Virus record (IMG/VR): IMGVR_UViG_3300047554_000303
Location: 1 to 64,000 of that record
Length of the DNA stretch: 64,000 nt
Strand: one strand, 5' to 3'
DNA from: a virus
The translations under genes and the position numbers were made by a program. The notes beneath the pieces were generated by a model. It was not told where the DNA came from, did no database searches, and saw nothing but the letters and a program-made list of their open reading frames with translations. Shown piece after piece: positions 30,182-47,729 of this stretch. The first letter of the stretch is position 1. Every line of letters starts with the position of its first letter.

Positions 30182-30223
30182 GATGGTAGTTTCTCACGAT
30201 TTATAGGGTATTACACTCTAAAG

Positions 30224-30296
30224 TCCCTGCGGTCAGATTCGAACTGACACTTTTACGATTTTAAGTCGCTTGCCTCTACCGTTGGGCTACGCAGGG
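30224..30296 (-). tRNA. tRNA-Leu(UAA) with a short variable loop
   Basis: Acceptor CCCTGCG/CGCAGGG-A, anticodon loop CTTAAAA, T-arm GTCAG-TTCGAAT-CTGAC. Confidence 0.85.
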
Positions 30297-31038: not shown

Positions 31039-31074
31039 AAAAAGAAACCCCGCTAGTTTTAGTAGCGGGGTCTT
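31039..31074 (-). terminator. Intrinsic terminator
   Basis: ACCCCGCTA-CTAAAAC-TAGCGGGGT followed by TTCTTTTT. Confidence 0.75.
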
Positions 31075-31092: not shown

Positions 31093-31263
31093 TTAGGCGT
31101 CTTTGCCCCAGCCTCCGCCCTTAAAAGTAACGGCTCCAACAGAGAACTTCTTACGACGAGCTATTGCACAAGTAGCGCAGATGATTACTGGGGAATCGGT
31201 AATTGGGTGCGAAATCTCAACGACTGATTTGCACGTAGGACACTCATACTCGTAGCTAGCCAC
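31093..31263 (-). CDS. FmdB-family zinc-ribbon protein
   Basis: GTG start with AAGGAG RBS; YEYECPTC...CATC...FKGGGW. Confidence 0.8.
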   Translation of the reverse strand: MASYEYECPTCKSVVEISHPITDSPVIICATCAIARRKKFSVGAVTFKGGGWGKDA

Positions 31264-31279
31264 ATTTCTCCTTTGCACG

Positions 31280-31345
31280 TGGACTGTGTAGGAGTCGAAC
31301 CTACAACTGGTTGAAAGGAAACAAAAGACCCAGCACCCTCAGCCC
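31280..31345 (-). ncRNA. D-armless tRNA-like RNA (G3-U70, A73) with a 19-nt pyrimidine loop
   Basis: GGGCTGA/ACAGTCC-A acceptor, perfect T-arm GTAGG-TTCGACT-CCTAC, CTGG/CCAG stem around GTCTTTTGTTTCCTTTCAA. Confidence 0.65.
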
Positions 31346-31356
31346 TAGTAAATAGA

Positions 31357-31435
31357 GGCAGGGACAAGACCGAAGACGTAATCGAAGTTTTTGTTAGATT
31401 AATAGGTTAGTTATTAATTTAACCTTGTCCCTACC
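31357..31435 (-). ncRNA. Stem-loop RNA: 12-bp stem closing an A/U-rich loop of about 55 nt
   Basis: GGTAGGGACAAG/CTTGTCCCTGCC (one U-G pair, favouring the minus strand). Confidence 0.45.
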
Positions 31436-31445
31436 GCTATTTAGT

Positions 31446-31670
31446 TTACTTTACTTCCTCCTCGGCCACATCAACCGATTCAGAAGTGTACCCAGAATAC
31501 TCCAAAGCGCAGAGAGCGTGATACGACACGCTGAAAAACTCTGACGCTTGTGGAAGCAGGTCTAGGACGTAAGCCCCCTCCTTGCCGTAGGTCTGACCCA
31601 AGTATTCCTCTAGAGCTGGACCGAACACCTCTAGGAAACGGCTTGGGGTCATGGCTTTGTTAATGTCCAT
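31446..31670 (-). CDS. Hypothetical protein
   Basis: TAATG coupled to Hsp20. Confidence 0.6.
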   Translation of the reverse strand: MDINKAMTPSRFLEVFGPALEEYLGQTYGKEGAYVLDLLPQASEFFSVSYHALCALEYSGYTSESVDVAEEEVK

Positions 31671-32197
31671 TAGCTAATCTCAATCTGCTTAGGCTTCTTC
31701 TCCTCAGGGAGCTCAAGCTCTAGCTTAATGGTTAGTAGTCCGTCTTCAAGCTTGGCGCTCTTTACCTCAATGTACTCTGCAATAGCAAAGGTAGTGGTGA
31801 AGTTACGCTGAGCGATGCCGTGGTGGATTACCTGACCGTACTGTCCCTCTTCAGGGATGTCGTTGCGGTCTTCGATGTCTGAGCGCACCGTGAGTACACG
31901 GTCCTTTACAAACACCTCTACTTCTTCCTTCTTGAACCCAGCAAGCGCCATGGTGATGGTGTAGCTGTCACCAGACTTAGTTAGGTTGTATGGAGGGAAG
32001 GAAGGCTTGTGCTGTGCTAGCTCTGTAAGGGTGTTGAACACAGAGTCATAGCCGATACCCCAACGGTCAATGTTGGGAAATAGGGAGTAAATAGTGGCAG
32101 GCTTCTGGTCTACTTTAGGTAAAGTTTTGTAAGGCTGCTTGTTTGGGTAGTGGGCATCCTTGTCCCACGGCTGGATTTCAAATGGATTTCTGGACAT
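31670..32197 (-). CDS. hsp20: Small heat-shock protein Hsp20/IbpA family
   Basis: FPPYNL..., ALAGFKKEEV, HHGIAQRNF and AKLEDGLLTI motifs. Confidence 0.92.
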   Translation of the reverse strand: MSRNPFEIQPWDKDAHYPNKQPYKTLPKVDQKPATIYSLFPNIDRWGIGYDSVFNTLTELAQHKPSFPPYNLTKSGDSYTITMALAGFKKEEVEVFVKDRVLTVRSDIEDRNDIPEEGQYGQVIHHGIAQRNFTTTFAIAEYIEVKSAKLEDGLLTIKLELELPEEKKPKQIEIS

Positions 32198-32330
32198 AGT
32201 ATCTCTTTCTAGACGATACGTGCCTCAAGCATCCCTGCCCGAAGCACAGGTTGTGTATGAACACCCAGTTGGCGTGTTCGATAACAGTATACACAACTTT
32301 CAATAAATGGTGTATAAAGTCTGTTTAATG

Positions 32331-32371
32331 AAAATGGGGCCAGACCTGCCGCAGCAATGGGTCTGGCCCCC
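32331..32371 (-). terminator. Terminator closing the RNA cluster
   Basis: GGGGCCAGACC...GGTCTGGCCCC followed by ATTTT. Confidence 0.65.
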
Positions 32372-32558
32372 AGCCGTTAGGTCTTGCGGTTACTCGGATT
32401 GCTCTCTGCATAGCCGTAAACGGGTTTGTTAGTTCTATCTTACAACTTAATCTCTTGCGAGGTGCTGAACAATTACGAACCGCAGGTGTAAGTCTAGGAA
32501 GCAATCCCGTGGTTGGCCTAATGCCTGTAATCAGGTTTAACCAACCAAGTGCGGTTGC
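32372..32558 (-). ncRNA. Unidentified structured RNA 1 (about 190 nt, probable pseudoknot)
   Basis: Helices GGTTGG/CCAACC, GGATTGCT/AGCAATCC, CTTACA/TGTAAG, TGCGGTT/AACCGCA; CTC-GCAA-GAG tetraloop; no ORF. Confidence 0.55.
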
Positions 32559-32562
32559 TTCG

Positions 32563-32630
32563 CACCCCGACTAAGAATCGAACTTAGCAAGACAAGTTTT
32601 GGAGGCTCGTCCGTACCCAGTACTCAAGGC
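32563..32630 (-). tRNA. tRNA-Trp(CCA) with a truncated D-arm
   Basis: GCCTTGA/TCGGGGT-G acceptor, loop CTCCAAA, T-arm CTAAG-TTCGATT-CTTAG, D-arm GTAC-TGG-GTAC. Confidence 0.7.
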
Positions 32631-32687
32631 GTAGTATGACTCAGGGCCCGACTGTTACGTCTGCGGCCCTGAGTGCTCACATTAGTT

Positions 32688-32872
32688 AGTGTAGCAAACC
32701 GAGTGGACTAAGTGTGTAGTTTCCCACACGCCGTGTTCGGCTTTGCCGTGGGCAGTCAGGCGACGAAACCTGAATTACGCCCTCGTCTAGGCCTGCCCTA
32801 TTCCGATACGCACCTCGGAAAAACAGTGTCAGGTTATCTGCAGTTCGCCTGAACGGATATGTGACCTACACC
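32688..32872 (-). ncRNA. Unidentified structured RNA 2 (about 185 nt, multibranch)
   Basis: Closing stem GGTGTAG/CTACACT; GGGCAG/CTGCCC, TTCCGA/TCGGAA, two TCAGG/CCTGA hairpins, GTGTGG-GAAA-CTACAC tetraloop. Confidence 0.55.
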
Positions 32873-32919
32873 AAAAGGGGAAAAGGTGTTATCATGGATA
32901 ACCCCGTCGTTCATACCTT

Positions 32920-33027
32920 TTATTTTACTTCTTTATTGTGGCACCTGCAACTGCAAAGTGCAGTACTGCCCTCACCAGGGCAATTCTTGTGGTCGTTCTC
33001 TGAGCACCATCCAAACATTCCAGTCAC
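32920..33027 (-). CDS. Small Cys/His-rich peptide
   Basis: GWCSENDHKNC...CSCRCH; probable GTG start at 33027. Confidence 0.5.
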   Translation of the reverse strand: MTGMFGWCSENDHKNCPGEGSTALCSCRCHNKEVK

Positions 33028-33043
33028 CTTTACTCCAGACCAC

Positions 33044-37291: not shown

Positions 37292-37609
37292 ATGTCCGCT
37301 CTACTATCCGCATCGGCTATTGCTTCGGCACTATCCGAGTCACCTGAATACAAGGCACTTGTCCTAGCGTTTGAGGCTAAGGCAGCGAAGGCACTTACCG
37401 AGGAGTTTCAGGTGAAGTCCCTAGGTGTCAAGATGACCCTAGCCCGTATTGCTGTCACCTACCAGGTATACAAGGCAGCACCGAAGGCACTAGGCGAGTC
37501 AGCACGTGCCTACACCGAGTCCGTCTCACGTGAGTGCCTAGCCATCATCAAGGCTAACGGCTACAAGGCAGACTGGAACAGCATCGTAGCCCTAGCCCAG
37601 CACGCATAA
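37292..37609 (+). CDS. First early-operon protein, hypothetical
   Basis: AAGGAG RBS, ATG at 37292. Confidence 0.75.
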   Translation: MSALLSASAIASALSESPEYKALVLAFEAKAAKALTEEFQVKSLGVKMTLARIAVTYQVYKAAPKALGESARAYTESVSRECLAIIKANGYKADWNSIVALAQHA

Positions 37610-37632
37610 GGCTACTGCCCCACACACAAGTG

Positions 37633-37729
37633 AGCCTAACCCCCTGTATGACCAGCTCATACGGGGGGTGGGCTTGCTGTTATCAGGTGTAAGAGCACTA
37701 CGGGCACCCCCTAGTCCGTAGTGTTCTTA
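37633..37729 (+). promoter_or_regulatory. Two intergenic hairpins (processing or attenuation sites)
   Basis: CCCCCTGTATG/CATACGGGGGG and TAAGAGCACTACGG/CCGTAGTGTTCTTA. Confidence 0.5.
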
Positions 37730-37768
37730 GGCTTGATAGCCCTACACACAGGAGAGAAAGGAAGAACT

Positions 37769-37975
37769 ATGTCCCAAATGTCCCTAACCGAGCAGATTGA
37801 GATGCTCACCCGTCACAGGGAAGAACTTCACCAGATGCTTGTGGGAGAGCATGACCTATCCCTAGAGGAAGTCAACAGGGCACTAGTGTCTATGAGAGCC
37901 CTTACTAGGGCAATACAGGTAAGAGAAGCCCGTATGCCCCTAGCAGCGTGGGAGAAAGAGCTACTAGGTATCTAG
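37769..37975 (+). CDS. Hypothetical early protein
   Basis: GAAAGGA RBS, ATG at 37769. Confidence 0.65.
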   Translation: MSQMSLTEQIEMLTRHREELHQMLVGEHDLSLEEVNRALVSMRALTRAIQVREARMPLAAWEKELLGI

Positions 37976-38095
37976 TCTCTCTCTATGTAAGTAACACATA
38001 AGACCTCCCCCATAGCCAAAGAGCTAGGGGGGACAAGCCCCCCTAAGACCCCCCAGTGATAGGGGCGTTCTTAGGACAACCCGAAAGGATAAGCA

Positions 38096-38260
38096 ATGAC
38101 AGTCACAGTCACCATAGTCACAAGGTATGAGATAGACATACCTGAGCTAGATAACAACACCCGTAAGTACATCACCGATAACTATGAAGCAGCAAGCCTG
38201 CCTTACGAGTATCAAGATGCCGAGTATGTAGACGGCAGTATCACCTATGAGGAGAACTAA
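38096..38260 (+). CDS. Hypothetical early protein (54 aa)
   Basis: Hand-translated MTVTVTIVTRYEIDIP...; GAAAGGA RBS. Confidence 0.6.
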   Translation: MTVTVTIVTRYEIDIPELDNNTRKYITDNYEAASLPYEYQDAEYVDGSITYEEN

Positions 38261-38391
38261 TGACCGTAGATAAGAACGCCGAAGGTGCGTGGCGTGTAAG
38301 TGACATCATCGGTGGCTATCTAGTTACCAAGGTGTACTACGAGTACACCAAGCGTGAAGCAATCAAGCGATTCAAGGAGGAATACAAGTGA
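38260..38391 (+). CDS. Hypothetical early protein (43 aa)
   Basis: MTVDKNAEGAWRVSDIIGGYLVTKVYY...; TAATG coupling. Confidence 0.6.
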   Translation: MTVDKNAEGAWRVSDIIGGYLVTKVYYEYTKREAIKRFKEEYK

Positions 38392-38675
38392 GAGTAAGAG
38401 GCGAGATTCAGTGTGATGCGTGTAGCACATACTGTGACCAAGACCCTATCGCAGTTATGGGAGCCTATTCCATACCTGAGAAGGTGGTAAGCGAGAAGGT
38501 AAAGGCAGAACTTGCGTGGTTCTGGCTATGTAGCGACTGTAAAGAAGACGTTACAGGTATTGAAGATTGGTTTACCCACGAGTATCTAACAAGTGTTCCA
38601 TGCGATGAGTGTGGAGACCCTGGCATGTATGACGAAGACGCAGGTAAGAACCTGTGTGATGACTGCTGGGCATAA
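38388..38675 (+). CDS. Cys-rich zinc-finger protein
   Basis: Four CxxC pairs. Confidence 0.65.
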   Translation: MRVRGEIQCDACSTYCDQDPIAVMGAYSIPEKVVSEKVKAELAWFWLCSDCKEDVTGIEDWFTHEYLTSVPCDECGDPGMYDEDAGKNLCDDCWA

Positions 38676-38688
38676 GAAAGGAAAACAA

Positions 38689-38904
38689 ATGAACAAGCTA
38701 TACAAGCGTATTATGAACCGCCTAGCTGATGACCTTATCTCTAAGGCATACCTAGAAGGCTACAACCTAGGGCTAGCAAGAGGGGCGAACAGCGAGCGTA
38801 ACCGCCTAGCTAACAAGCTAGAGAACCTAGAGATTGAGAAGTTCAACAACACAGGTGTAACCCTTGGGTATTACACCGCATTAGAGCTAGTCAAGGAGGA
38901 CTAA
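38689..38904 (+). CDS. Hypothetical early protein
   Basis: GAAAGGAAAACAA RBS, ATG at 38689. Confidence 0.65.
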   Translation: MNKLYKRIMNRLADDLISKAYLEGYNLGLARGANSERNRLANKLENLEIEKFNNTGVTLGYYTALELVKED

Positions 38905-39198
38905 GTGATACCAAAGAGCGTGTTCATTCACACTAAGCGTTGGCGTGACAAAGTAAATGGGCAGAGTTATTTCGCATCCCGTATTGAAGTAGGCACAGCT
39001 AACTACCTGTTCGTGCCGTTTCAGTATGGGTATGAGAGTGCTGACCTAGACGCAGCAGTCAAAGTATTACAGCAGGCAGGGTATGAGGTAGAGCGTAAGC
39101 ACTTCAACACTAGCCAAGCACCGTTTGACCACTACTACGCCAGTGAGTGGACAACCAAGAGAGAAACCAAGCGTTTCGGAGAGGACTTCAGCGGATGA
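38905..39198 (+). CDS. Hypothetical early protein
   Basis: KRWRDKVNGQSYFASRI...PFQYGY. Confidence 0.65.
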   Translation: MIPKSVFIHTKRWRDKVNGQSYFASRIEVGTANYLFVPFQYGYESADLDAAVKVLQQAGYEVERKHFNTSQAPFDHYYASEWTTKRETKRFGEDFSG

Positions 39199-39444
39199 TT
39201 TTCTATAACGGGTTCAACCTACTAGTAGACCTAGTGCTAGTAGCAATCACAGCAGTAATCGCATACAAGATGGGAGCAAGCAGATGAGCACGAACGAATA
39301 CCGTCTGACTACTGAGCAGGAGGAAGTATTACAGGATGTAATAGCCGAGAAGCTAGAGGAAGACTACGCCAAGCACAGTGTGCTACACCCTGTGTTTGAA
39401 GCAATCATTGGCAGATGGAAGCCAACGTATGAGGAGGATAACTA

Positions 39445-39651
39445 ATGGGTAGAGAAGTTCACTTTGTTATCGCAGTAGATGTAGATAACAACACCGTGTC
39501 CATAGATGATGACACTTACGCAGCTAAGTTTGATTACTCCCAAGGTTATTACGACACCGACAAAGAGCAATGGTTTGAAGATGAAGACCGCATCTTGTAT
39601 GACTTAGCACTAGGCATACTCAACAACAAAGCACAACTAGAAAGGGAATAA
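39445..39651 (+). CDS. Hypothetical acidic early protein
   Basis: GAGGAGG RBS. Confidence 0.6.
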   Translation: MGREVHFVIAVDVDNNTVSIDDDTYAAKFDYSQGYYDTDKEQWFEDEDRILYDLALGILNNKAQLERE

Positions 39652-39654
39652 CAA

Positions 39655-39858
39655 GTGGCATACGGACCAAGAGTTCTAGAGGAACTCACTAGGCAGTACA
39701 CATACCTACACGACAAGACCTTTAGCAAAGGTGTGAACCTTTGGTATGGGGAAGCAGGCAGTGACTTCAAGGTAGCAGAGATGATACTTGAGGGTAACAA
39801 CCTAAGTGTTGTAGAGCAGTACTTGATTGACAACTATGGAGAGGGAGACGATGACTAG
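39655..39858 (+). CDS. Hypothetical early protein
   Basis: ORF track, operonic. Confidence 0.55.
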   Translation: MAYGPRVLEELTRQYTYLHDKTFSKGVNLWYGEAGSDFKVAEMILEGNNLSVVEQYLIDNYGEGDDD

Positions 39859-40174
39859 CATTACCGACAAGCTCAGTGAGCTTGATGAATACCTAGAAGA
39901 AGCAAAAGGTATCGCTTGGGATAACTGCCACAAGATTTACATCATGATGGATAACCAAGAGGTAGAACAGATGCGTAAGTATGGGTATGACCCACTTATT
40001 ACATCAGACGAGATGACACCAGCAGAGATGCTAGGCACAGTACTCAAGTGGTACAACGATTCATGTGGACTCAAGTTCATAGATATAACAAGCACTACGG
40101 ATACAGGTACTGAGTTCTATGCCCTAGTGCCGCAGTTCTTTGCTGATGAAGATGAGGAGGAAGACGATGAGTGA
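39851..40174 (+). CDS. Hypothetical acidic early protein
   Basis: IAWDNCHKIY...SCGLKFI; probable start at 39851. Confidence 0.65.
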   Translation: MTSITDKLSELDEYLEEAKGIAWDNCHKIYIMMDNQEVEQMRKYGYDPLITSDEMTPAEMLGTVLKWYNDSCGLKFIDITSTTDTGTEFYALVPQFFADEDEEEDDE

Positions 40175-40306
40175 AGCAGTTTACAGCGTGTGGGTAGGTG
40201 GGGTAGAAGCTAACGATTACTACCTGACTGAAGAGTTTGCTAAGCAGTTGGCAGACCTGTTCATACATGACGGCTACATAGATGTACTAGTAACTAAGGA
40301 AACCAA

Positions 40307-40540
40307 ATGAGTGAGCGTGTTACATACGTTGATTACCAATGGAAAGACTCAGATGTACCAGGTGACACCAGTGCGTTGGTAGTGATACTCAATGACTGTG
40401 GTAAGTATGAGCAGATGGTAGAAGACGAAGCTTATGATGCACGTGTCTGGTTCTACTTCCAAGATGAAGCAGAGTTTCAACGTGCCTTTGACCCAAGCTC
40501 AGATGAGTTTGAGTTCGTACTAACAAATGAGAGGAAATAA
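40307..40540 (+). CDS. Hypothetical acidic early protein
   Basis: AAGGAAAC RBS. Confidence 0.6.
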   Translation: MSERVTYVDYQWKDSDVPGDTSALVVILNDCGKYEQMVEDEAYDARVWFYFQDEAEFQRAFDPSSDEFEFVLTNERK

Positions 40541-40542
40541 CA

Positions 40543-41070
40543 ATGGGAACAAGAGGGCTGACAGTAGTCACCTATAACAATGAAGTACGTGTAGCACAGT
40601 ATGGACAGTGGGACCACTACCCTGCTGGACAAGGTGTTACAGCTCTAGAGTTCTTGCGTAACCCTGAGAACGTAGAGCAACTACGCAAGAACATGGACAA
40701 GTGCTACTGGATTCCACAAGACAGACACGAAGCTCTTATTGGTGAGTTCTCTAGCTCAGACAAGTCGGGGTGGATGACCTTTGAAGAGGGCAAAGCATTT
40801 GGGGAAGCATACCCAAGCCTTACTCGTGACACTGGTGCAGAGATTCTGTATGTAATTGCAGAAGCAACTGAGCCTGTGCCACTAGTCAACGAGTATGAGT
40901 TCAGTAAAGATGAGCTGATGTGTGAGGGCATCTACTCAGTAGACCTTGACCGCAACACGTTCATCAGTGAGTACGCCCCGTATCCAACAAAGGTGTATGA
41001 CCTAGACAACCTGCCTACAAGGGAAGACTACCTTGCAGCGTTCAAAGAAGAGGAAGAAGTAAATGCCTAA
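40543..41070 (+). CDS. Conserved phage hypothetical protein (MGTRG...QYGQWDHYP)
   Basis: ORF track; recognisable phage motif. Confidence 0.7.
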   Translation: MGTRGLTVVTYNNEVRVAQYGQWDHYPAGQGVTALEFLRNPENVEQLRKNMDKCYWIPQDRHEALIGEFSSSDKSGWMTFEEGKAFGEAYPSLTRDTGAEILYVIAEATEPVPLVNEYEFSKDELMCEGIYSVDLDRNTFISEYAPYPTKVYDLDNLPTREDYLAAFKEEEEVNA

Positions 41071-41638
41071 CTGGTGTGAGAATGAGGTAGAGATTACCTT
41101 TGAGAGTAAAGCAGAGTATGACAAGTTCATTACACAAGCTGGGGTAGATGAAAGCACTAGCCCTTACCTTGAGTATGACAACGAGAAGAATGGCTATGGG
41201 TTCTTCGACAGGTTCTTGCCTACCCCACCTGAGATGCTAGAAGGTGAGGGCTGGTGGAGCTGGCGCATCAGTAACTGGGGCACCAAGTGGAACCCTAACT
41301 TCAACAAGTTTGAGACGGATGATGATGCCCTAACGATAAGCATGGACATGTCTACGGCATGGGCACCACCCATTGAGTTCTTCACTACGTTCACTGAGCT
41401 CTTCTCTAGTGCAATCGTAAAGCTTGCGTACCTAGAAGAAGGCATGGGCTTCTGTGGTAAAGCAGAGTTCTATCAAGGGTCAGTTGAAGACAACTACCTC
41501 AACGAGATACCTACCTCCATGTACGTAGCAGCAGGTGCCACACTCAATGCTGATGGAGAGATTGACTGGGATGAAGACCAGAACTATAACCTGTGGGAAG
41601 TTATCAACGACTCAGAACGATTCGACGAGTTCGTGTAA
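41063..41638 (+). CDS. YubB/Api92-like ferredoxin-fold protein
   Basis: MPNWCEN, WRISNWGTKW and TAWAPP motifs. Confidence 0.8.
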   Translation: MPNWCENEVEITFESKAEYDKFITQAGVDESTSPYLEYDNEKNGYGFFDRFLPTPPEMLEGEGWWSWRISNWGTKWNPNFNKFETDDDALTISMDMSTAWAPPIEFFTTFTELFSSAIVKLAYLEEGMGFCGKAEFYQGSVEDNYLNEIPTSMYVAAGATLNADGEIDWDEDQNYNLWEVINDSERFDEFV

Positions 41639-41676
41639 CAGACACCAACAAGCGTGACATGAGAGTGGAGAGGCTC

Positions 41677-41759
41677 TCCTGATTACGAAACAAAGCCTAG
41701 GTCAGTGTGTGTACCTAGGCTTTGTCGTAGGGTAATGACCCTACCTGATGAGTAAAGGA
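41677..41759 (+). ncRNA. Type II hammerhead ribozyme
   Basis: TTAC-GAAA-CAAAGCCTAGG(loop)CCTAGGCTTTG-TC|GTAGGGT(AATG)ACCCTAC-CTGATGA-GTAA: full catalytic core, three paired stems, GUC cleavage site after 41726. Confidence 0.9.
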
Positions 41760-41766
41760 AAGCAGT

Positions 41767-42102
41767 ATGGAAACAGTAACCATTACCCGTACGATTGATG
41801 CCGTTGAGTTCTGGTCAAGCATCATGGGTAGCACAGAGTTCATGGGTGAACAATGGCTCAAGGTCAAGTACCACGGTGAGTCTGACTGGGATAAGCCAGG
41901 CAGCGTAACTATCACCGCTGACAATGGTGAGGAAGAAATATCCAAGACACTAACCATTGAAGACCTAGTACAGGCATACGAAGCTGTAATAGCTAAGCCG
42001 TACTACCACTGTGGTGGCACAGTTGACATCGACAACATGGATGAGTGTGCGAGTGACATCGTGCTACAGCAGGCGGTGTTCGGAGATGTTATCTATGGGT
42101 AA
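41767..42102 (+). CDS. Hypothetical acidic protein downstream of the hammerhead
   Basis: D..SDIVLQQAVFGDVIYG C-terminus; RBS AAAGGAAAG. Confidence 0.7.
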   Translation: METVTITRTIDAVEFWSSIMGSTEFMGEQWLKVKYHGESDWDKPGSVTITADNGEEEISKTLTIEDLVQAYEAVIAKPYYHCGGTVDIDNMDECASDIVLQQAVFGDVIYG

Positions 42103-42245
42103 GCGATGGCTCAAGCTAGTGCCGAGTCGCTGGGCAGGGCGTGGCCAACACAAACAAAACAACGATGAACACGTAACGATTAGGGTAAGCACCTTGCACC
42201 TAATCATTCGTGAGACATACAACATGGGCAGAGAGGATGAACGTA

Positions 42246-42449
42246 ATGAGTCGCAAAGTAACAGTGACCTACACAGTCACGTATGACCTACGCAAAGGTG
42301 ATGTAGGTAGAGATTACGTAGAGTGGCTAGACGGCTACAGAGACAATAAGGGACTTCGTAGTTGGTTTGTAATAGACCGTTTCGTTGGTCACGACAACCT
42401 ACAACTGTTTGACCCTAAGGCTAAGCTCCGCATAACAGAGGAGAAGTAA
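42246..42449 (+). CDS. Hypothetical early protein
   Basis: Probable start MSRKVTV. Confidence 0.55.
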   Translation: MSRKVTVTYTVTYDLRKGDVGRDYVEWLDGYRDNKGLRSWFVIDRFVGHDNLQLFDPKAKLRITEEK

Positions 42450-42706
42450 TGACACATGCACACACAGAGACACGAACAACCGAAAGCTCACGTGGCTGGT
42501 CACTGCACTGTACTGAGTGTAACGAGTACCTAGGCTTTGAAGATAAACCACCTGTGTACTCAGTGTTCGTAAATGGTTGGGAAGGTTCAATGAGGGTGTG
42601 GTATGCACCTGAGTTTGAGACACCAGAAGAAGCACAGACTTGGCTAGACAACCAAGGCGAATGGGACGAAGGCCGTCCTTACGTTGAAGAGGTATACAAC
42701 TACTAG
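42449..42706 (+). CDS. Hypothetical early protein
   Basis: TAATG coupling; CTEC. Confidence 0.55.
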   Translation: MTHAHTETRTTESSRGWSLHCTECNEYLGFEDKPPVYSVFVNGWEGSMRVWYAPEFETPEEAQTWLDNQGEWDEGRPYVEEVYNY

Positions 42707-43065
42707 AAAGGAAACACCATGTACCACGCAGATGATGACATGAATGACCTTTACGAGTTCATGCGAGAAGAAGCTACGGCTCGTGAAGAGGATGCCAATT
42801 ACGAAAGTGACTCATCCGATACGGAAGAACTAGCAACCGCCAAAAGCATGCACCGAGAGGACTACTAATGAACACCTATGAAGTAACCGTAGTAGAGAAG
42901 ATTAAACACACTGTTGAGGTAGAAGCACTCAACGAAGACGAAGCCTTGACCAAAGGCTATGACATTGTCATGAACGGCCCTGAGGATGAGTATGACTCAG
43001 AGTCCCAAGGCAGTGCCGAATCATACGTACTAAGAATCAACTAACACGAAAGAAAAGGAAACCAC

Positions 43066-44466
43066 ATGTACGCAACACTAATCCTTAGCCAGTCCCCGTA
43101 CGGTGTACGCCAGACTGCTATCATCCCTACCACCAACAACGGTGTACGTATCTTGCACAGATGCGGCTTCGGTCGTGGCCTAGCTGCAACTTGGAGCGAA
43201 GCTTACCCAGATGCAGAAGCACTACAAGAGTATGTACTCAATGCACCTGTGTCACTAGCTATGACTCCAGCTCATGTACGTGACGCTGATGTCATGGCTC
43301 GTACTCCTAACAACGTACTGCAAGCACTAGGTAAGCGACTAGCCACAGCGTTCGTCCCTAGCAACTCCACTCTAGGTGAGCTATTAGACAATGTACTAGC
43401 CGCTTGTTCTACTAACCCTGCATCACTAGCCAAGTATGCACACAAGCAGTCAGTGACTGTGACTGTCCCTTCAGTAGCACCTGCACCACACCCTGTGACA
43501 GTGAGCGTCCACTACCCACAGACTAATGAGGTAGTACAAGAGCAGCTCACTCCGACTGCACCTGTAACCGAAGAGGTAATCAACATGGCTACACCTGCAC
43601 CACAGCCAGCCACAGTTACTGTGACTAACCGCTCGCTCAACACCTTGAACATCCCAGACGTTGAGCCGTACTTTGAGCGTTCGTTCGAAGACATCTCTGA
43701 GTCACGTATCTATGACTCTGCACGTAAGAACCAGTGGAATGTACTACTGACTGGTGATGCTGGTACAGGCAAGACATCATCTGCCCGTAACTATGCAGCA
43801 CAGCGCAAGCTCCCATTCGTAGTCATCGAATGTACTCAACAGATTGACAACAGCATTACTCAGGGTCGCTTCGTACCTGCTGAGGACGGCACGTCTATCA
43901 AGTGGGTGTACTCACAGCTAGCCACTGCTATCCAGCAGCCTTCGGTCATCTTGCTCAATGAGTTGACCCGTATGTCTCCCAAGTCATCCTCACTGTTCCT
44001 TCGCCTCATCTGGGAGCGTGAGCTATTGATTGAGCCATTCAACGAGGTTATCAAGGTACACCCAGAGTGCTTGTTCATTGCTGATGCCAACGTAGGTAAC
44101 AACTACAGCGGTACCATGCGACAGGACGGCGCACTGCTTGACCGCTTTGCTATCAAGCTTCCGTTCAGTTACGACGCTGAGCTTGAGGCCAAGTTCATCC
44201 CGTACCCTGCACTGCTAGGCTTTGCCACTGGTATCCGTACTGCGACCGAGCTAGGTCAGGAAGACTTCACTGTCCCACTGTCCACTCGTTTGCTACAGAC
44301 CTTCGTAGCACAAGTCAAGGAGTTCAGTTGGAGCTTCGCTGTCCAACGTCTGCTGTCCAACTTCCCTACCGACACTGGTGAGCGTGACGCTATCAAGCTT
44401 CGTATCGATGCTGACGCACCACGTATTGCTCGTGAGTTCGGTGTTGACTTAGCACCTACTGCCTAA
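43066..44466 (+). CDS. MoxR/CbbQ/CobS-like AAA+ ATPase
   Basis: Walker A GDAGTGKT, Walker B variant ILLNE, DGALLDRF, LSTR. Confidence 0.85.
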   Translation: MYATLILSQSPYGVRQTAIIPTTNNGVRILHRCGFGRGLAATWSEAYPDAEALQEYVLNAPVSLAMTPAHVRDADVMARTPNNVLQALGKRLATAFVPSNSTLGELLDNVLAACSTNPASLAKYAHKQSVTVTVPSVAPAPHPVTVSVHYPQTNEVVQEQLTPTAPVTEEVINMATPAPQPATVTVTNRSLNTLNIPDVEPYFERSFEDISESRIYDSARKNQWNVLLTGDAGTGKTSSARNYAAQRKLPFVVIECTQQIDNSITQGRFVPAEDGTSIKWVYSQLATAIQQPSVILLNELTRMSPKSSSLFLRLIWERELLIEPFNEVIKVHPECLFIADANVGNNYSGTMRQDGALLDRFAIKLPFSYDAELEAKFIPYPALLGFATGIRTATELGQEDFTVPLSTRLLQTFVAQVKEFSWSFAVQRLLSNFPTDTGERDAIKLRIDADAPRIAREFGVDLAPTA

Positions 44467-44492
44467 TCTAGAATAAACCTGAGGAGGTTATT

Positions 44493-46268
44493 GTGGCTAT
44501 CACCGTATACAACAATCAAGTAGACAAAGAATCTGTGCAGCGCATCTACGCTGCCAAGTTGCAGCAGAGCTTTGGCAAGTTTGCTCGTGCAATTGCTTTG
44601 CGAGACATCTCTGTGTCTATCGTCCCGCAACAGAGAGGGCTTCAGCCAGCACCTGCATGGAGCACAGACAACGGTCTGGTAGTTACTTACGACCAGAGCA
44701 AAGGGAGTGTGCTTGCTGCAAACAACCTGCTGCGACTCAAGGGCTTGGTCATTCATGAGCTATCTCACCTATTGTTTACGCCACGTAGTTTGACTGGTCT
44801 AGTCAAGTGGGTGCACGCACAGAACTACGGCTCCTCGTTCAACATTCTTGAGGACAATCGTATTGAGAACATGATGGTAGCCAAGATGTCTGGTATTGCA
44901 CCATGGCTAGTACACACTGTTGCAACAGAGTTACTGGCTGCCAGCAACCCAGACTTGCTTCCGCTTGTATGGGGTCGCAAGTATCTTGACTCCAACATCC
45001 GACTGCTTGCTCGTGATGAGTGGGCTAAGAAGTATGGTGCTGAGAATGCTGCTGAGGTGTGCAAGTATCTGGACAGATACGTACAGCTCAACCTTGGTGA
45101 CACTAAGAACTACACAGAAGCACAGGAGATTATTGCTGCGTTCCACACACTGTGTCAGTTGGCTGCTCCCACCTCTTCCCTTCATGGTCAGTCTTCATCT
45201 GCTCCTGAGAGCAATGGTGAGAAGCCTGAGTCACGTAGTGAGCAAGGCAAGCTACTCAAGCAGGTCGACATGTCTGAGCCTGAAGAAGATGAGTCAACTG
45301 CTGTGCACACATCCTCTGACTCGGAAGACACAGAGGACACTCCATCGTTGACTAAGCAACTACAGCGTGTTGCTGACGAGGCTTATACTGAGGTGTTAGA
45401 GGATGTAAAGAACACCATTGCTAACGTACGTAATGATGACGGTGTTGGCGAGGTACATGACCACGACAATGACAGGGGCAAAGGTAGGAGTGTGGTCAAC
45501 ATGCCGAGCTGGTCTTGGAGAAAGATTTACCCTTCTGCCGTTAGCATTCAAGCATCACGTAGGTTTGCTAATGAGCTTATCAATCTCAAGGCTGAGCATG
45601 ACCCAGGTTGGTTGCGCAAGACCAGCCAAGGCAAGGTCAATGTTCGACAGTTCATGCAGGGTGCTGACTTTGACGAGATGTTTGACCAGTGGTCTGAGGG
45701 CAACCAAGATGTCAGTGACATTGAGTGTGTGGTTCTTGTAGACAGCTCTGGTTCAATGCACGACATGCTGACCCCTGCTTACGAAGCTATGTGGACAATC
45801 AAGCGTGCACTAGATAGCATCAACGCTAGTACAACTGTTATACAGTTTGCTGACATGGGTGGTTGGCTATACAAAGCTGACGAGCGTGCACAGACATACA
45901 TCAAGACTGCGCCTAGTGGTGTCGGCGGCTCTACCTACCCGTTCTCTAGTCTCAAAGCTGCCAAAGAAATCCTGACTAACTCTCCACGTGCAATCAAGCT
46001 GCTGCTTGTTGTTACTGACGGTGCATGGGGTAGCCCACAAGCATGCGACCAGTTGATTACTGGTATGCGTACATCGGGAGTACTGACAAGCCTCGTGTTC
46101 TTGACTGAACCTTCTGAGAACATTCCTTACTACCTCCGCTCAGTTGATGGCGGCATAGCTGTTGACGGACACAAGTGTGAGTTCGTACAACACCTTACCA
46201 ACCCACTAGAGATTGTTGACGTAGCCAAAGCGATTACCAAGCGTGCACAACGTGCGCTTCTTGTATAG
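44493..46268 (+). CDS. VWA-domain protein with an N-terminal HExxH region (CobT-like partner)
   Basis: HELSH, NILEDNRIE, MIDAS DSSGSM, VVTDG. Confidence 0.85.
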   Translation: MAITVYNNQVDKESVQRIYAAKLQQSFGKFARAIALRDISVSIVPQQRGLQPAPAWSTDNGLVVTYDQSKGSVLAANNLLRLKGLVIHELSHLLFTPRSLTGLVKWVHAQNYGSSFNILEDNRIENMMVAKMSGIAPWLVHTVATELLAASNPDLLPLVWGRKYLDSNIRLLARDEWAKKYGAENAAEVCKYLDRYVQLNLGDTKNYTEAQEIIAAFHTLCQLAAPTSSLHGQSSSAPESNGEKPESRSEQGKLLKQVDMSEPEEDESTAVHTSSDSEDTEDTPSLTKQLQRVADEAYTEVLEDVKNTIANVRNDDGVGEVHDHDNDRGKGRSVVNMPSWSWRKIYPSAVSIQASRRFANELINLKAEHDPGWLRKTSQGKVNVRQFMQGADFDEMFDQWSEGNQDVSDIECVVLVDSSGSMHDMLTPAYEAMWTIKRALDSINASTTVIQFADMGGWLYKADERAQTYIKTAPSGVGGSTYPFSSLKAAKEILTNSPRAIKLLLVVTDGAWGSPQACDQLITGMRTSGVLTSLVFLTEPSENIPYYLRSVDGGIAVDGHKCEFVQHLTNPLEIVDVAKAITKRAQRALLV

Positions 46269-46423
46269 AGAGGAATACAAATGAATACAGAGCCAGAATA
46301 CTATTGCATCTTCTGTGAAGACTATGTAATGAACATCGACATGGCTATGAAGTGCTTACAATGTGGTGAGTACAAAGGGCTGGTCAAGGTCGGCCCAACA
46401 CAAACAAATGGAGAGGATAACTA

Positions 46424-46618
46424 ATGAACCGCTATGAAGTACACGTACACGTTGTCTACAAGATAGACGCCGCATCGCTAGAGGATGCCTACCGCAAGAT
46501 TAACGAGGGTGCCGAGTTCCCTGTCTTGCCTTACGACGATAATACTTATTGTGACGCTGTTGTTATTACAGACATTAAACAGTTGAGTGAAGCAGAACTA
46601 TCAGAGGAGACAGTGTGA
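46424..46618 (+). CDS. Hypothetical protein
   Basis: GAGGA RBS. Confidence 0.55.
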   Translation: MNRYEVHVHVVYKIDAASLEDAYRKINEGAEFPVLPYDDNTYCDAVVITDIKQLSEAELSEETV

Positions 46619-46908
46619 GCCTGTATTACGGAGTCAATGGAGAACCAATCACCTTAGAACAATGGGGTGAGATTATGGAGGATGTTGAGCAGAAAGTAGT
46701 TAAGCAAGACAGAGTAAATGGATTACTGGTGTCTACAGTTTGGCTTGGCATGAACCACAACTTCGGAGAAGGAGAGCCTCTTATTTACGAGACCATGGTT
46801 TTCCCAGAAGGTAGTTGGGAAGAGATGTACATGGAAAGGTACACCACCCGTGAGCAAGCAATCGCTGGGCATGAGGTAGCGTTGGAATGGACAAAGGAGC
46901 AGAAGTGA
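46615..46908 (+). CDS. Conserved phage hypothetical protein
   Basis: VSTVWLGMNHNF...IYETMVF...RYTTREQAIAGH. Confidence 0.7.
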   Translation: MSLYYGVNGEPITLEQWGEIMEDVEQKVVKQDRVNGLLVSTVWLGMNHNFGEGEPLIYETMVFPEGSWEEMYMERYTTREQAIAGHEVALEWTKEQK

Positions 46909-47015
46909 GTGAGGCAACTCAAATGTCAGACGGTCAAGACTGGACTGAACCAATCAAGTTGACCGCCGCTGAGTGGGAGCAGTTGAACGAAGCGTTAGAG
47001 GGAGAGCAGAAGTGA
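46905..47015 (+). CDS. 36-aa peptide
   Basis: Hand-translated; bounded by two GAGCAGAAGTGA junctions. Confidence 0.55.
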   Translation: MSEATQMSDGQDWTEPIKLTAAEWEQLNEALEGEQK

Positions 47016-47230
47016 GTGTAGAGAGCATTATCAACAACCCACCAAAGGTATTTACAGAGCCTTGCGAGGCTTGCGGAGTAAGTGAGTTTCAGCTAGGCGT
47101 CAGCCACGCAGAAGAACGCATTATCAAGTTGCTAGAAAAAGAAGCAAAAGGCTTCAACTTCATTAGAAATTTTTATGCGGAAGCCATAACTAGCGAACTA
47201 ATTGGCAAAATCAAAGGAGAGCAGAAGTGA
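47012..47230 (+). CDS. Hypothetical protein (EERIIKLLEK family)
   Basis: GTG start at the junction motif. Confidence 0.6.
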   Translation: MSVESIINNPPKVFTEPCEACGVSEFQLGVSHAEERIIKLLEKEAKGFNFIRNFYAEAITSELIGKIKGEQK

Positions 47231-47412
47231 GAGAGACATGGATGGGGTCAGGGGTCAACAGTACAATAAAGCTGTTTCACGTTACCTGCCCAAATTGTGA
47301 TACCGAATGGGCAGATGATTTTTATGTAGACGATTGGGGCAATGTAGAAGAAGAGATTAAATGCTACAAATGCAATGAGCCGTTTACGTTTACACATTAC
47401 AAAGGAGAGTAA
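47227..47412 (+). CDS. Zinc-ribbon protein
   Basis: CPNC...CYKC. Confidence 0.6.
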   Translation: MRETWMGSGVNSTIKLFHVTCPNCDTEWADDFYVDDWGNVEEEIKCYKCNEPFTFTHYKGE

Positions 47413-47414
47413 GA

Positions 47415-47729
47415 ATGGCAAGAACGAAAAAACCAGTTGACCGTCAAGCAGTCACTATCATCCAGGTGAAAGACCCTCTGTGTGCTCAGACTGACCCTGA
47501 GATGTTCTTCCCGTCCGACAGCAAGGGAGACGGGTACACCACCACCAAGTACGCAAAGGACATTTGCGCCCAGTGCGATTACACAGTGCAGTGCCTTATT
47601 ACAGCAATAATGAATAAAGAAGAGTATGGCATTTGGGGAGGCTCTAGCCCAAGAGACCGCCGAGCTATCAAGACTAGAACTCAGGCAATAACCTTCGTGA
47701 AGAAGTTAAAAGACGAACGCAAGAAGTAG
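47415..47729 (+). CDS. whiB: WhiB-family transcription factor
   Basis: CAQTDPEMFFP, CAQC..C, YGIWGG. Confidence 0.92.
   Translation: MARTKKPVDRQAVTIIQVKDPLCAQTDPEMFFPSDSKGDGYTTTKYAKDICAQCDYTVQCLITAIMNKEEYGIWGGSSPRDRRAIKTRTQAITFVKKLKDERKK

What the first reader, a model, noticed from the sequence alone, without database searches (positions are those of the whole stretch)
31280..31345. tRNA-scaffolded RNA whose loop is antisense to the early-gene ribosome-binding sites
Seen: the minus strand reads GGGCTGA GGGTG CTGG GTCTTTTGTTTCCTTTCAA CCAG TT GTAGG TTCGACT CCTAC ACAGTCC A. It has a perfect T-arm, an acceptor stem with G3-U70 and A73, no D-stem, and a 19-nt pyrimidine loop in place of an anticodon. 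The loop is complementary to GAAAGGAAACAAAAGA. The plus-strand early RBSs match this: GAAAGGAAACA at 42706-42716 (11 nt exact), GAAAGGAAA+ACAAA at 38676, AAAGGAAAC at 43054, AAAGGAAA at 41754 and AAGGAAAC at 40296. The plus-strand copy at 31313 has no start codon after it, so it is not itself an RBS. Established: G3-U70/A73 is the AlaRS identity element and the hallmark of the tmRNA tRNA-like domain, which also lacks a D-stem. Inference: host tRNA processing could excise a stable small RNA that presents an anti-SD guide and silences early and/or host GAAAGGA-led mRNAs late in infection. Alternatively it is a tRNA-domain-only tmRNA mimic (SmpB or AlaRS decoy).
Basis: partly seen in the sequence, partly recalled or inferred. 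Interest (0 to 1): 0.88.

Follow-up and report, generated by a model that had tools for sequence, protein, structure and literature searches.

The report
Non-decoding tRNA-shaped phage RNA
A phage carries a conserved RNA that descends from an alanine tRNA, can no longer read codons, and shows a short pyrimidine sequence resembling the ribosome's mRNA-docking tail in an enlarged loop. The same design recurs in unrelated phages, but its function is not established.

Summary
Window 31280-31345 (minus strand) has a 6-bp acceptor stem (plus an A-A mismatch) with G3-U70 and A73. It has a perfect T arm, no D arm and a 19-nt pyrimidine loop. Six sequence variants in related uncultured phages keep all three helices through compensatory changes and keep the loop core UUCCUUUC.

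The acceptor and T-arm half matches real tRNA-Ala genes, so the element derives from a tRNA-Ala. No homologue has a usable anticodon.

It sits in an HSP20 / orf74 / Zn-ribbon operon, 3 nt after a conserved 18-bp hairpin and 5 nt before the Zn-ribbon gene's ribosome-binding site.

A pattern scan found the same architecture, with the same 8-mer in an enlarged loop, on at least nine unrelated acceptor types in other viral contigs. A composition-matched control gave none.

- The loop does match plus-strand leaders more than chance, but so does a generic 16S-type tail.
- Loops and leaders do not co-vary between phages, and a relative without the element has the same leaders.
- G3-U70 is lost in one clade.

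Most likely it is cut out like a tRNA and displays an anti-SD-like loop. Its target is unknown. Earlier notes of this scan describe similar RNAs on other DNA.

The parts
31280..31345 (-). The tRNA-Ala-derived, D-armless, non-decoding tRNA-shaped RNA (66 nt): acceptor stem, 4-nt linker, 5-bp arm closing a 19-nt loop, T arm, discriminator A
   Evidence: Sequence. CM R1 scores it at 72.6 bits, and it is the only copy in the 91.6-kb genome. Six variants show compensatory changes.
31313..31320 (-). Conserved loop core UUCCUUUC (reads GAAAGGAA on the plus strand)
   Evidence: Identical in 5 of 6 variants; one U-to-C change in L110. The same 8-mer sits in the enlarged loop of unrelated tRNA-shaped elements.
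31264..31279 (-). Spacer and ribosome-binding site of the Zn-ribbon gene. The SD AAAGGAG lies at 31274-31268, 5 nt after A73. The palindrome CACGTG spans the junction.
   Evidence: conserved in all six variants.
31093..31263 (-). FmdB-type Zn-ribbon gene (56 aa, GTG start at 31263), always directly downstream of the element
   Evidence: Pfam Zn_ribbon_8, E 6.8e-6, below the curated cut-off. Orthologues at 72-76% identity carry the element. The 48% orthologue (L004) and the divergent one in L042 do not.
31349..31443 (-). Conserved long hairpin (about 18-bp stem, about 60-nt loop with a highly conserved 3' half), ending 3 nt before G1 of the element
   Evidence: 18 predicted pairs, 4 with changes on both sides. 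One copy per genome. Present in L042 without the tRNA-shaped element.
31045..31073 (-). Intrinsic-terminator-like hairpin plus T-run closing the operon after the Zn-ribbon gene
   Evidence: 11-pair stem followed by a T-rich tail.
31446..32197 (-). Upstream genes of the same strand and unit: HSP20 (32197-31670) and a 74-aa ORF (31670-31446)

Best explanation
The element is a selectively maintained, non-decoding RNA that descends from a tRNA-Ala gene. It keeps the top half of a tRNA (acceptor stem plus T arm). The D arm is replaced by a short linker. The anticodon arm is replaced by a longer arm whose enlarged loop carries the conserved single-stranded sequence UUCCUUUC(U).

It is transcribed as part of the HSP20 / orf74 / Zn-ribbon operon of an uncultured 91.6-kb phage with direct terminal repeats.

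Inferred mechanism:
- The top half is the part that RNase P and RNase Z recognise, so the host's tRNA-processing enzymes probably cut at G1 and after A73.
- That would leave the upstream mRNA ending in the conserved 18-bp hairpin.
- It would leave the Zn-ribbon mRNA starting 5 nt before its ribosome-binding site.
- It would release a 66-80-nt stable RNA.
- The loop of that RNA is a near copy of a Bacillus- or actinobacterial-type 16S rRNA 3' tail. It can therefore pair with AAAGGA-type ribosome-binding sites, or be bound by a factor that reads such pyrimidine tracts.

Shown: the structure, its conservation, its tRNA-Ala origin, the constraint on the loop, and recurrence of the design in unrelated phages.

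Inferred: the cleavage, the stability of the product, and any pairing with ribosome-binding sites.
For: - Structure: six variants keep three helices, with 95.8% of cells paired and 5 doubly changed pairs. At class level, 20 sequences give 96.1% paired, 14 of 16 pairs doubly changed, and slid controls of 42-56%.
- Origin: the T-arm plus 3'-acceptor pattern finds tRNA-Ala genes.
- Non-decoding: default ARAGORN and Rfam fail, and low-threshold calls disagree on the anticodon.
- Loop constraint: the linker differs completely between clades while the loop core is kept.
- Class: 17 further distinct compact elements, on at least 9 unrelated acceptor types, hold the same 8-mer in an enlarged loop. The control 8-mer gave 0. 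CM R1 recovers them at E values from 5e-8 to 4e-2.
- Processing context: the phage's true tRNA-Leu also has A at -1 and no encoded CCA. The operon is bounded by terminators.
- Precedent: tRNA-like t-elements direct RNase P and RNase Z cuts that form mRNA ends and release stable RNAs (PMC1920247). RNase P also processes phage C4 antisense RNA and tmRNA precursors (PMC11143913).
- The tRNA-like fold is 4-12 kcal/mol better than a nested loop:SD fold in 5 of 6 variants.
Against: - No RNA ends or expression data could be obtained.
- The host, and therefore its real 16S tail, is unknown.
- Loop-to-adjacent-SD duplexes (-6.7 to -10.8 kcal/mol) are no better than shuffled loops of the same composition.
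- The L110 variant weakens the pairing without a compensating change.
- Leaders and loops do not co-vary.
- L042 and G005 manage without the element.
- A pure processing signal would not need a conserved loop, so part of the function is still unexplained.
- The class was found with a pattern that forced the 8-mer, and the control scan was saturated by one unrelated abundant element.
Confidence: 0.4

Rival explanations
1. Pure punctuation signal. The element only directs RNase P and RNase Z cuts that separate the upstream mRNA from the Zn-ribbon mRNA, as plant mitochondrial t-elements do. The loop has no function of its own.
For: Top-half mimicry is conserved. The element lies between a 3' hairpin and an SD. 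Class members often lie 20-45 nt before a start codon. Precedent in PMC1920247.
Against: It does not explain why the loop 8-mer is kept while the linker diverges completely. It does not explain why the same 8-mer recurs on unrelated scaffolds.
Confidence: 0.2
2. Cis-regulatory leader of the Zn-ribbon gene. Either the loop masks the adjacent ribosome-binding site (possibly until processing), or the small Zn-ribbon protein binds the tRNA mimic to autoregulate, as ThrRS does on its operator.
For: Fixed 5-nt spacing to the SD in all six variants, and strict co-occurrence with one Zn-ribbon subtype. In the window and L003, the minimum-energy fold with downstream context pairs the loop with the SD.
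Against: The nested switch is 4-12 kcal/mol worse than the tRNA fold in 5 of 6 variants. Duplexes are no better than shuffled loops. Other class members sit in front of unrelated genes, or of none.
Confidence: 0.15
3. An excised anti-SD guide silences the plus-strand early genes (leaders of the GAAAGGAAAC type) or host mRNAs in trans.
For: A match of 8 nt or more occurs in 6 of 28 plus-block leaders against 1 of 133 others, well above shuffled loops. The loop core is conserved.
Against: A 16S-type tail gives the same concentration on those leaders. There is no advantage for a phage's own loop, and no loss of such leaders in G005, which lacks the element. Only 4 of 161 leaders hold the core complement.
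Confidence: 0.1
4. Decoy or mimic. This could be a tRNA-domain-only tmRNA mimic that titrates AlaRS or SmpB. Alternatively it could be bait for a nuclease or factor that targets pyrimidine-rich anticodon loops or the 16S tail.
For: G3-U70 and A73 occur in 4 of 6 variants and in the independent L252/L269 family. The D-armless layout resembles the tmRNA tRNA-like domain (own knowledge).
Against: The L001/L003 clade has G3-C70. Only 6 of 20 class members have G3-U70. There is no tag frame and no tmRNA call. No defence or toxin context was seen.
Confidence: 0.07
5. A decaying tRNA-Ala pseudogene with no function.
For: It lies in the phage's tRNA region: tRNA-Leu is about 1 kb away, and relatives carry tRNA-Asn just after the Zn-ribbon gene. 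It is dispensable in L042 and G005.
Against: Compensatory changes occur in two of the three helices (arm and T stem) across three clades, while the acceptor changes on one side only. The loop is conserved, and the design recurs on other scaffolds.
Confidence: 0.03

Closest known systems
Plant mitochondrial t-elements (tRNA-like processing signals; PMC1920247)
   Same: Non-canonical tRNA-like folds with a conserved T arm and acceptor stem, embedded next to mRNAs. RNase P and RNase Z cut them, form mRNA ends and can release a stable small RNA.
   Different: They are organellar and have no conserved functional loop. Here the element is in a phage operon, has an enlarged loop with a conserved anti-SD-like 8-mer, and recurs across phages. 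Cleavage has not been shown here.
tRNA-like domain of tmRNA
   Same: tRNA-Ala-type acceptor (G3-U70, A73), T arm, no D stem, and a long helix in place of the anticodon arm.
   Different: No pseudoknots, no tag reading frame, 66-80 nt only. G3-U70 is lost in one clade. ARAGORN calls no tmRNA.
C4 antisense RNA of phages P1/P7 (own knowledge; listed as an RNase P substrate in PMC11143913)
   Same: A phage small RNA cut by RNase P out of the leader of the operon it regulates. Its loops pair with the ribosome-binding region of a downstream gene.
   Different: No sequence or Rfam similarity. C4 has two specific target-matched loops with proven targets. Here the loop is a generic anti-SD look-alike with no proven target.
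Anti-SD-loop small RNAs such as RsaE/RoxS and the Cuckoo/alpha-r14 family
   Same: Pyrimidine-rich loops complementary to ribosome-binding sites.
   Different: These are simple hairpin sRNAs with their own promoter and terminator. They are not tRNA scaffolds and not intercistronic. No Rfam match here.
mascRNA (tRNA-like small RNA cut from MALAT1 by RNase P and RNase Z; own knowledge)
   Same: A non-decoding tRNA mimic released from a longer transcript by tRNA-processing enzymes.
   Different: It is eukaryotic, has no anti-SD-like loop, and its anticodon-arm equivalent differs.

Membership tests
Canonical tRNA (Rfam RF00005) | Cloverleaf with a D arm and a 7-nt anticodon loop; score above the gathering threshold | tested here: not met
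   18.1 bits against a gathering score of 29. ARAGORN at default finds nothing. No D stem, and a 13-20-nt loop in all variants. Low-threshold anticodon calls are inconsistent.
Canonical tRNA (Rfam RF00005) | 7-bp acceptor stem and 5-bp T stem with a T-loop of the UUCRANY type | tested here: met
   The T loop is canonical in 4 of 6 variants. It starts UGCAA in L001 and L003.
tRNA-Ala lineage | G3-U70 wobble pair and A73 | tested here: inconclusive
   Present in the window, L041, L043 and L110. L001 and L003 have G3-C70. The acceptor/T-arm pattern retrieves real tRNA-Ala genes. Descent is supported; conserved Ala identity is not.
tmRNA | tRNA-like domain plus pseudoknots and a tag reading frame ending in a stop codon | tested here: not met
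   ARAGORN tmRNA search is negative at default and relaxed thresholds. Reading the loops in all frames showed no conserved mini-ORF (read from the sequences).
t-element-like processing signal | Acceptor plus T-arm mimic placed at an mRNA boundary | tested here: met
   It sits 3 nt after a conserved hairpin and 5 nt before an SD, inside a terminator-bounded operon.
t-element-like processing signal | Transcript ends at the 5' and 3' borders of the element; non-templated CCA on the product | not testable with these tools
C4 antisense RNA / YrlA / other curated phage or tRNA-like RNA families in Rfam | Match to the family covariance model | tested here: not met
   No family other than tRNA at E up to 10 over the element. 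Class members reach no gathering score.
Anti-SD regulatory RNA | Single-stranded pyrimidine motif complementary to ribosome-binding sites | tested here: met
   The loop core is unpaired in the conserved fold. It is complementary to AAAGGA-type SDs.
Anti-SD regulatory RNA | Specific target relation: co-variation of loop and target, or better-than-composition pairing | tested here: not met
   No own-loop advantage. The adjacent-SD duplex is no better than shuffled loops.

The most novel reading that the evidence does not exclude
Phages of many lineages have repeatedly converted tRNA genes into a stable scaffold that is processed by RNase P and RNase Z. The scaffold displays a copy of the 16S rRNA anti-SD tail (UUCCUUUC and relatives). 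This would make a new class of translation-control RNAs. They would mask ribosome-binding sites or titrate a factor that reads the 16S tail. Their biogenesis would come free from the host's tRNA machinery.
Probability: 0.25. Interest if true: 0.85.

Novelty: new variant of a known kind. Interest (0 to 1): 0.66.

Why it matters
If these RNAs are excised and act through their loop, phages would have a compact and evolvable way to make regulatory RNAs. They would take a tRNA gene, keep the half that processing enzymes recognise, and swap the anticodon arm for a functional loop. This would explain part of the tRNA-like or pseudo-tRNA calls in phage genomes. It would add a family missing from Rfam. 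It would also give a testable link between tRNA processing and control of translation initiation. Even the modest reading (a processing signal) would document tRNA punctuation of phage mRNAs.

Tried and rejected
- Cultured relatives: none in the phage collection by DNA or by the Zn-ribbon protein. The terminase is only 54% identical to that of Streptomyces phage BRock, so the host stays unknown.
- attP relic: rejected. Both acceptor strands are present, there is no integrase in the complete genome, and the genome has direct terminal repeats.
- tmRNA or mini-tag: no conserved reading frame in the loops; ARAGORN tmRNA search negative.
- Usable anticodon: low-threshold ARAGORN gives Lys, Arg, none, Leu, Leu and undetermined across homologues.
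- Nested riboswitch- or thermometer-like switch between the tRNA fold and loop:SD pairing: disfavoured in 5 of 6 variants.
- Promoter inside the hairpin: no sigma-70-like site.
- More distant homologues: none in 48 further loci. The metagenome scan found only near-identical copies plus unrelated tRNA-derived, SINE-like sequences (my reading of the repeated flanks). R2 on 0.8 Mb of unrelated viral DNA found only ordinary tRNAs.
- Complex prediction and the structure tools were not used, because no protein-binding claim is made.

Full report
**What is there.**
It has a 7-nt acceptor 5' strand, a 4-nt linker and a 5-bp arm that closes a 19-nt pyrimidine loop. After one more base come a perfect 5-bp T stem with a canonical T loop, the acceptor 3' strand and a discriminator A.
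- The acceptor forms six pairs, including G3-U70, plus an A-A mismatch at 7-66.
- ARAGORN at default finds only a tRNA-Leu at 30223-30296.
- Rfam gives the tRNA model 18 bits against a gathering score of 29, and nothing else of note.
- Folded alone, the 66-mer is unremarkable (z -0.87). The case therefore rests on comparison with relatives.

**Genome and context.**
- The window belongs to a complete 91.6-kb virus record with direct terminal repeats. It encodes a terminase, an SPP1-type portal, HSP20 and an AAA/VWA pair. It has no integrase.
- The element lies in a 167-nt gap on the coding strand.
- The order is: a terminator-like hairpin near 32372-32335, HSP20, a 74-aa ORF, a long hairpin at 31443-31349, the element 3 nt later, then 5 nt, the SD AAAGGAG and the GTG start at 31263 of a 56-aa FmdB-type Zn-ribbon gene. 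An intrinsic-terminator-like site at 31073-31045 closes the unit.
- The phage's true tRNA-Leu also has A at -1 and no encoded CCA. Any tRNA-type processing in this host must therefore use RNase Z and CCA addition (inference from established tRNA biology).

**Homologues.**
- Protein-anchored and pattern searches recovered five further distinct variants: L001/L002, L003, L041/L103, L043 and L110. Near-identical copies (L098, L099) came from metagenomes.
- Lengths are 66, 72-73 and 80 nt.
- The linker that replaces the D arm differs completely between clades. The arm varies from 5 to about 10 bp.
- All three helices are kept: 95.8% of cells pair and five pairs change on both sides. When partners are slid, only 41-58% pair.
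- The acceptor sequence is nearly invariant. The T stem and the arm co-vary.
- The loop core UUCCUUUC is identical in five variants and has one U-to-C change in L110.
- There is one copy per genome.
- L042 has the hairpin and a divergent Zn-ribbon gene but lacks the element cleanly. The 93.5-kb relative G005 also lacks it.

**Origin.**
- A 26-nt pattern covering the T loop and the 3' acceptor strand was scanned over one genome per prokaryote species. It matched four places.
- Three of them are real tRNA-Ala genes with the same type of acceptor stem. The element is therefore a remodelled tRNA-Ala.
- It no longer decodes. No variant has a 7-nt anticodon loop. ARAGORN at an 80% threshold assigns Lys, Arg, nothing, Leu, Leu and an undetermined anticodon to the six variants.
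- Alanine identity is not conserved either. L001 and L003 have G3-C70 and a T loop starting UGCAA. This weakens the AlaRS, SmpB and tmRNA-mimic readings.

- Every listed match is real and sits 5-9 nt before an ATG.
- With a simple gene call, 6 of 28 leaders in the plus-strand block 37.3-47.7 kb hold a contiguous match of 8 nt or more to the loop, against 1 of 133 elsewhere. Shuffled loops give a mean of 0.47 in the block.
- The explanation is mundane. Those leaders carry long purine-rich SDs. A generic 16S-type tail shows the same concentration: 11-12 of 28 leaders at 7 nt or more.
- Across phages, a phage's own loop is no better than foreign loops. G001's leaders match the window's loop better than G001's own loop. 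G005, without the element, has as many matching leaders.
- The core complement GAAAGGAA occurs in 4 of 161 leaders here and in 5 of 159 in G005.
- The predicted co-variation test therefore fails. A generic anti-SD property remains.

**Cis pairing.**
- With downstream context, the minimum-energy fold of the window and of L003 pairs the loop with the adjacent SD.
- When both conformations are forced, the tRNA-like fold wins by 4-12 kcal/mol in five of six variants.
- Loop-to-leader duplexes (-6.7 to -10.8 kcal/mol) are no better than shuffled loops.
- A non-nested contact cannot be excluded, but it is not supported either.

**A wider class.**
- A scan of viral contigs for the 8-mer followed by a T arm gave 117 loci.
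- I then applied a strict architecture filter: a 5-bp T stem; a hairpin of at least 4 bp ending within 5 nt of the T stem, with an 8-22-nt loop holding the whole 8-mer; and an acceptor of at least 6 of 7 pairs within 14 nt of the hairpin.
- Twenty distinct elements passed. Seventeen lie outside this family, on at least nine unrelated acceptor types. A composition-matched control 8-mer gave none.
- The control is imperfect.
- CM R1 recovers the outside members (E from 5e-8 to 4e-2). The joint alignment of 20 sequences is 96.1% paired, with 14 of 16 pairs changed on both sides.
- The alignment is fitted to the model, and the sequences were pre-selected on two model features. These figures therefore lean towards the structure.
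- None reaches any Rfam threshold.
- Several lie 20-45 nt before the start of varied genes that I read as ParB-like, terminase-like and secreted proteins. That reading comes from their N-terminal sequences only; no family search was run. Others have no nearby gene.
- One contig (L323) holds a second such element with a different loop.
- Earlier notes of this scan describe comparable tRNA-shaped phage RNAs on other DNA, with mixed verdicts on the anti-SD loop. I treat these as leads only.

**Reading.**
- What is shown is a conserved, non-decoding, tRNA-Ala-derived RNA with a constrained pyrimidine loop, belonging to a recurrent design.
- The top half is what RNase P and RNase Z recognise. tRNA-like t-elements do direct such cuts next to mRNAs and release stable RNAs (PMC1920247). 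RNase P also matures phage C4 antisense RNA and tmRNA (PMC11143913).
- I therefore think excision from the operon transcript is the most likely biogenesis. The loop would be the functional surface, either as an anti-SD look-alike or as a protein-binding tract.
- Which target it has is open. The specific early-gene silencing model and the tmRNA-mimic model are the least supported readings.

Noticed in passing
window 32563-32630 (minus strand): A second non-canonical tRNA-shaped element. It has a perfect T arm, an acceptor with three G-U pairs, an anticodon loop reading CCA (Trp) and a very short D arm. ARAGORN at default and Rfam miss it; ARAGORN -ps calls it tRNA-Trp. It lies in about 850 nt without a convincing ORF (32198-33040). 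A relative (L044) has a canonical tRNA-Trp.
   Followed up: partly
window 31349-31443 (minus strand): A conserved hairpin with an 18-bp stem whose roughly 60-nt loop has a nearly invariant 3' half. There is one copy per genome. It is also present in L042, which lacks the tRNA-shaped element. It could be an RNase III site, a 3' stabiliser or a protein-binding site.
   Followed up: partly
window 37292-47729 (plus strand): A block of about 28 mostly small genes with unusually long purine-rich ribosome-binding sites (purine fraction of leaders 0.66 against 0.58 elsewhere). It is transcribed divergently from the rest of the genome.
   Followed up: partly
window 31276-31281 (junction of A73 and the spacer): The palindrome CACGTG spans the end of the element and the spacer. 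It is kept in 5 of 6 variants. In some variants it can form a small hairpin that encloses the SD and includes the start codon.
   Followed up: no
L323 2966-3039 (minus strand): A second D-armless tRNA-shaped element in the same high-GC viral contig. It has a 7/7 acceptor, an 8-bp arm and a 10-nt loop of different sequence. This suggests that the scaffold carries different loops.
   Followed up: no
L324-L443 (control scan loci): The control pattern was dominated by one very abundant, conserved, ARAGORN-negative element in viral contigs. It ends in a T-arm-like hairpin preceded by a pyrimidine tract. Its identity was not determined.
   Followed up: no
L209 3680-4871: A contig of a Micromonosporaceae MAG carries an array of 11 tRNA genes. 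One is a tRNA-Ala with a shortened D arm whose 3' half closely resembles the window element.
   Followed up: no
L001 4273-4347, L003 4272-4344, L004 3365-3705: In relatives, ordinary tRNA genes (Asn, Thr) flank the Zn-ribbon gene. This locus is therefore the tRNA region of this phage group.
   Followed up: partly
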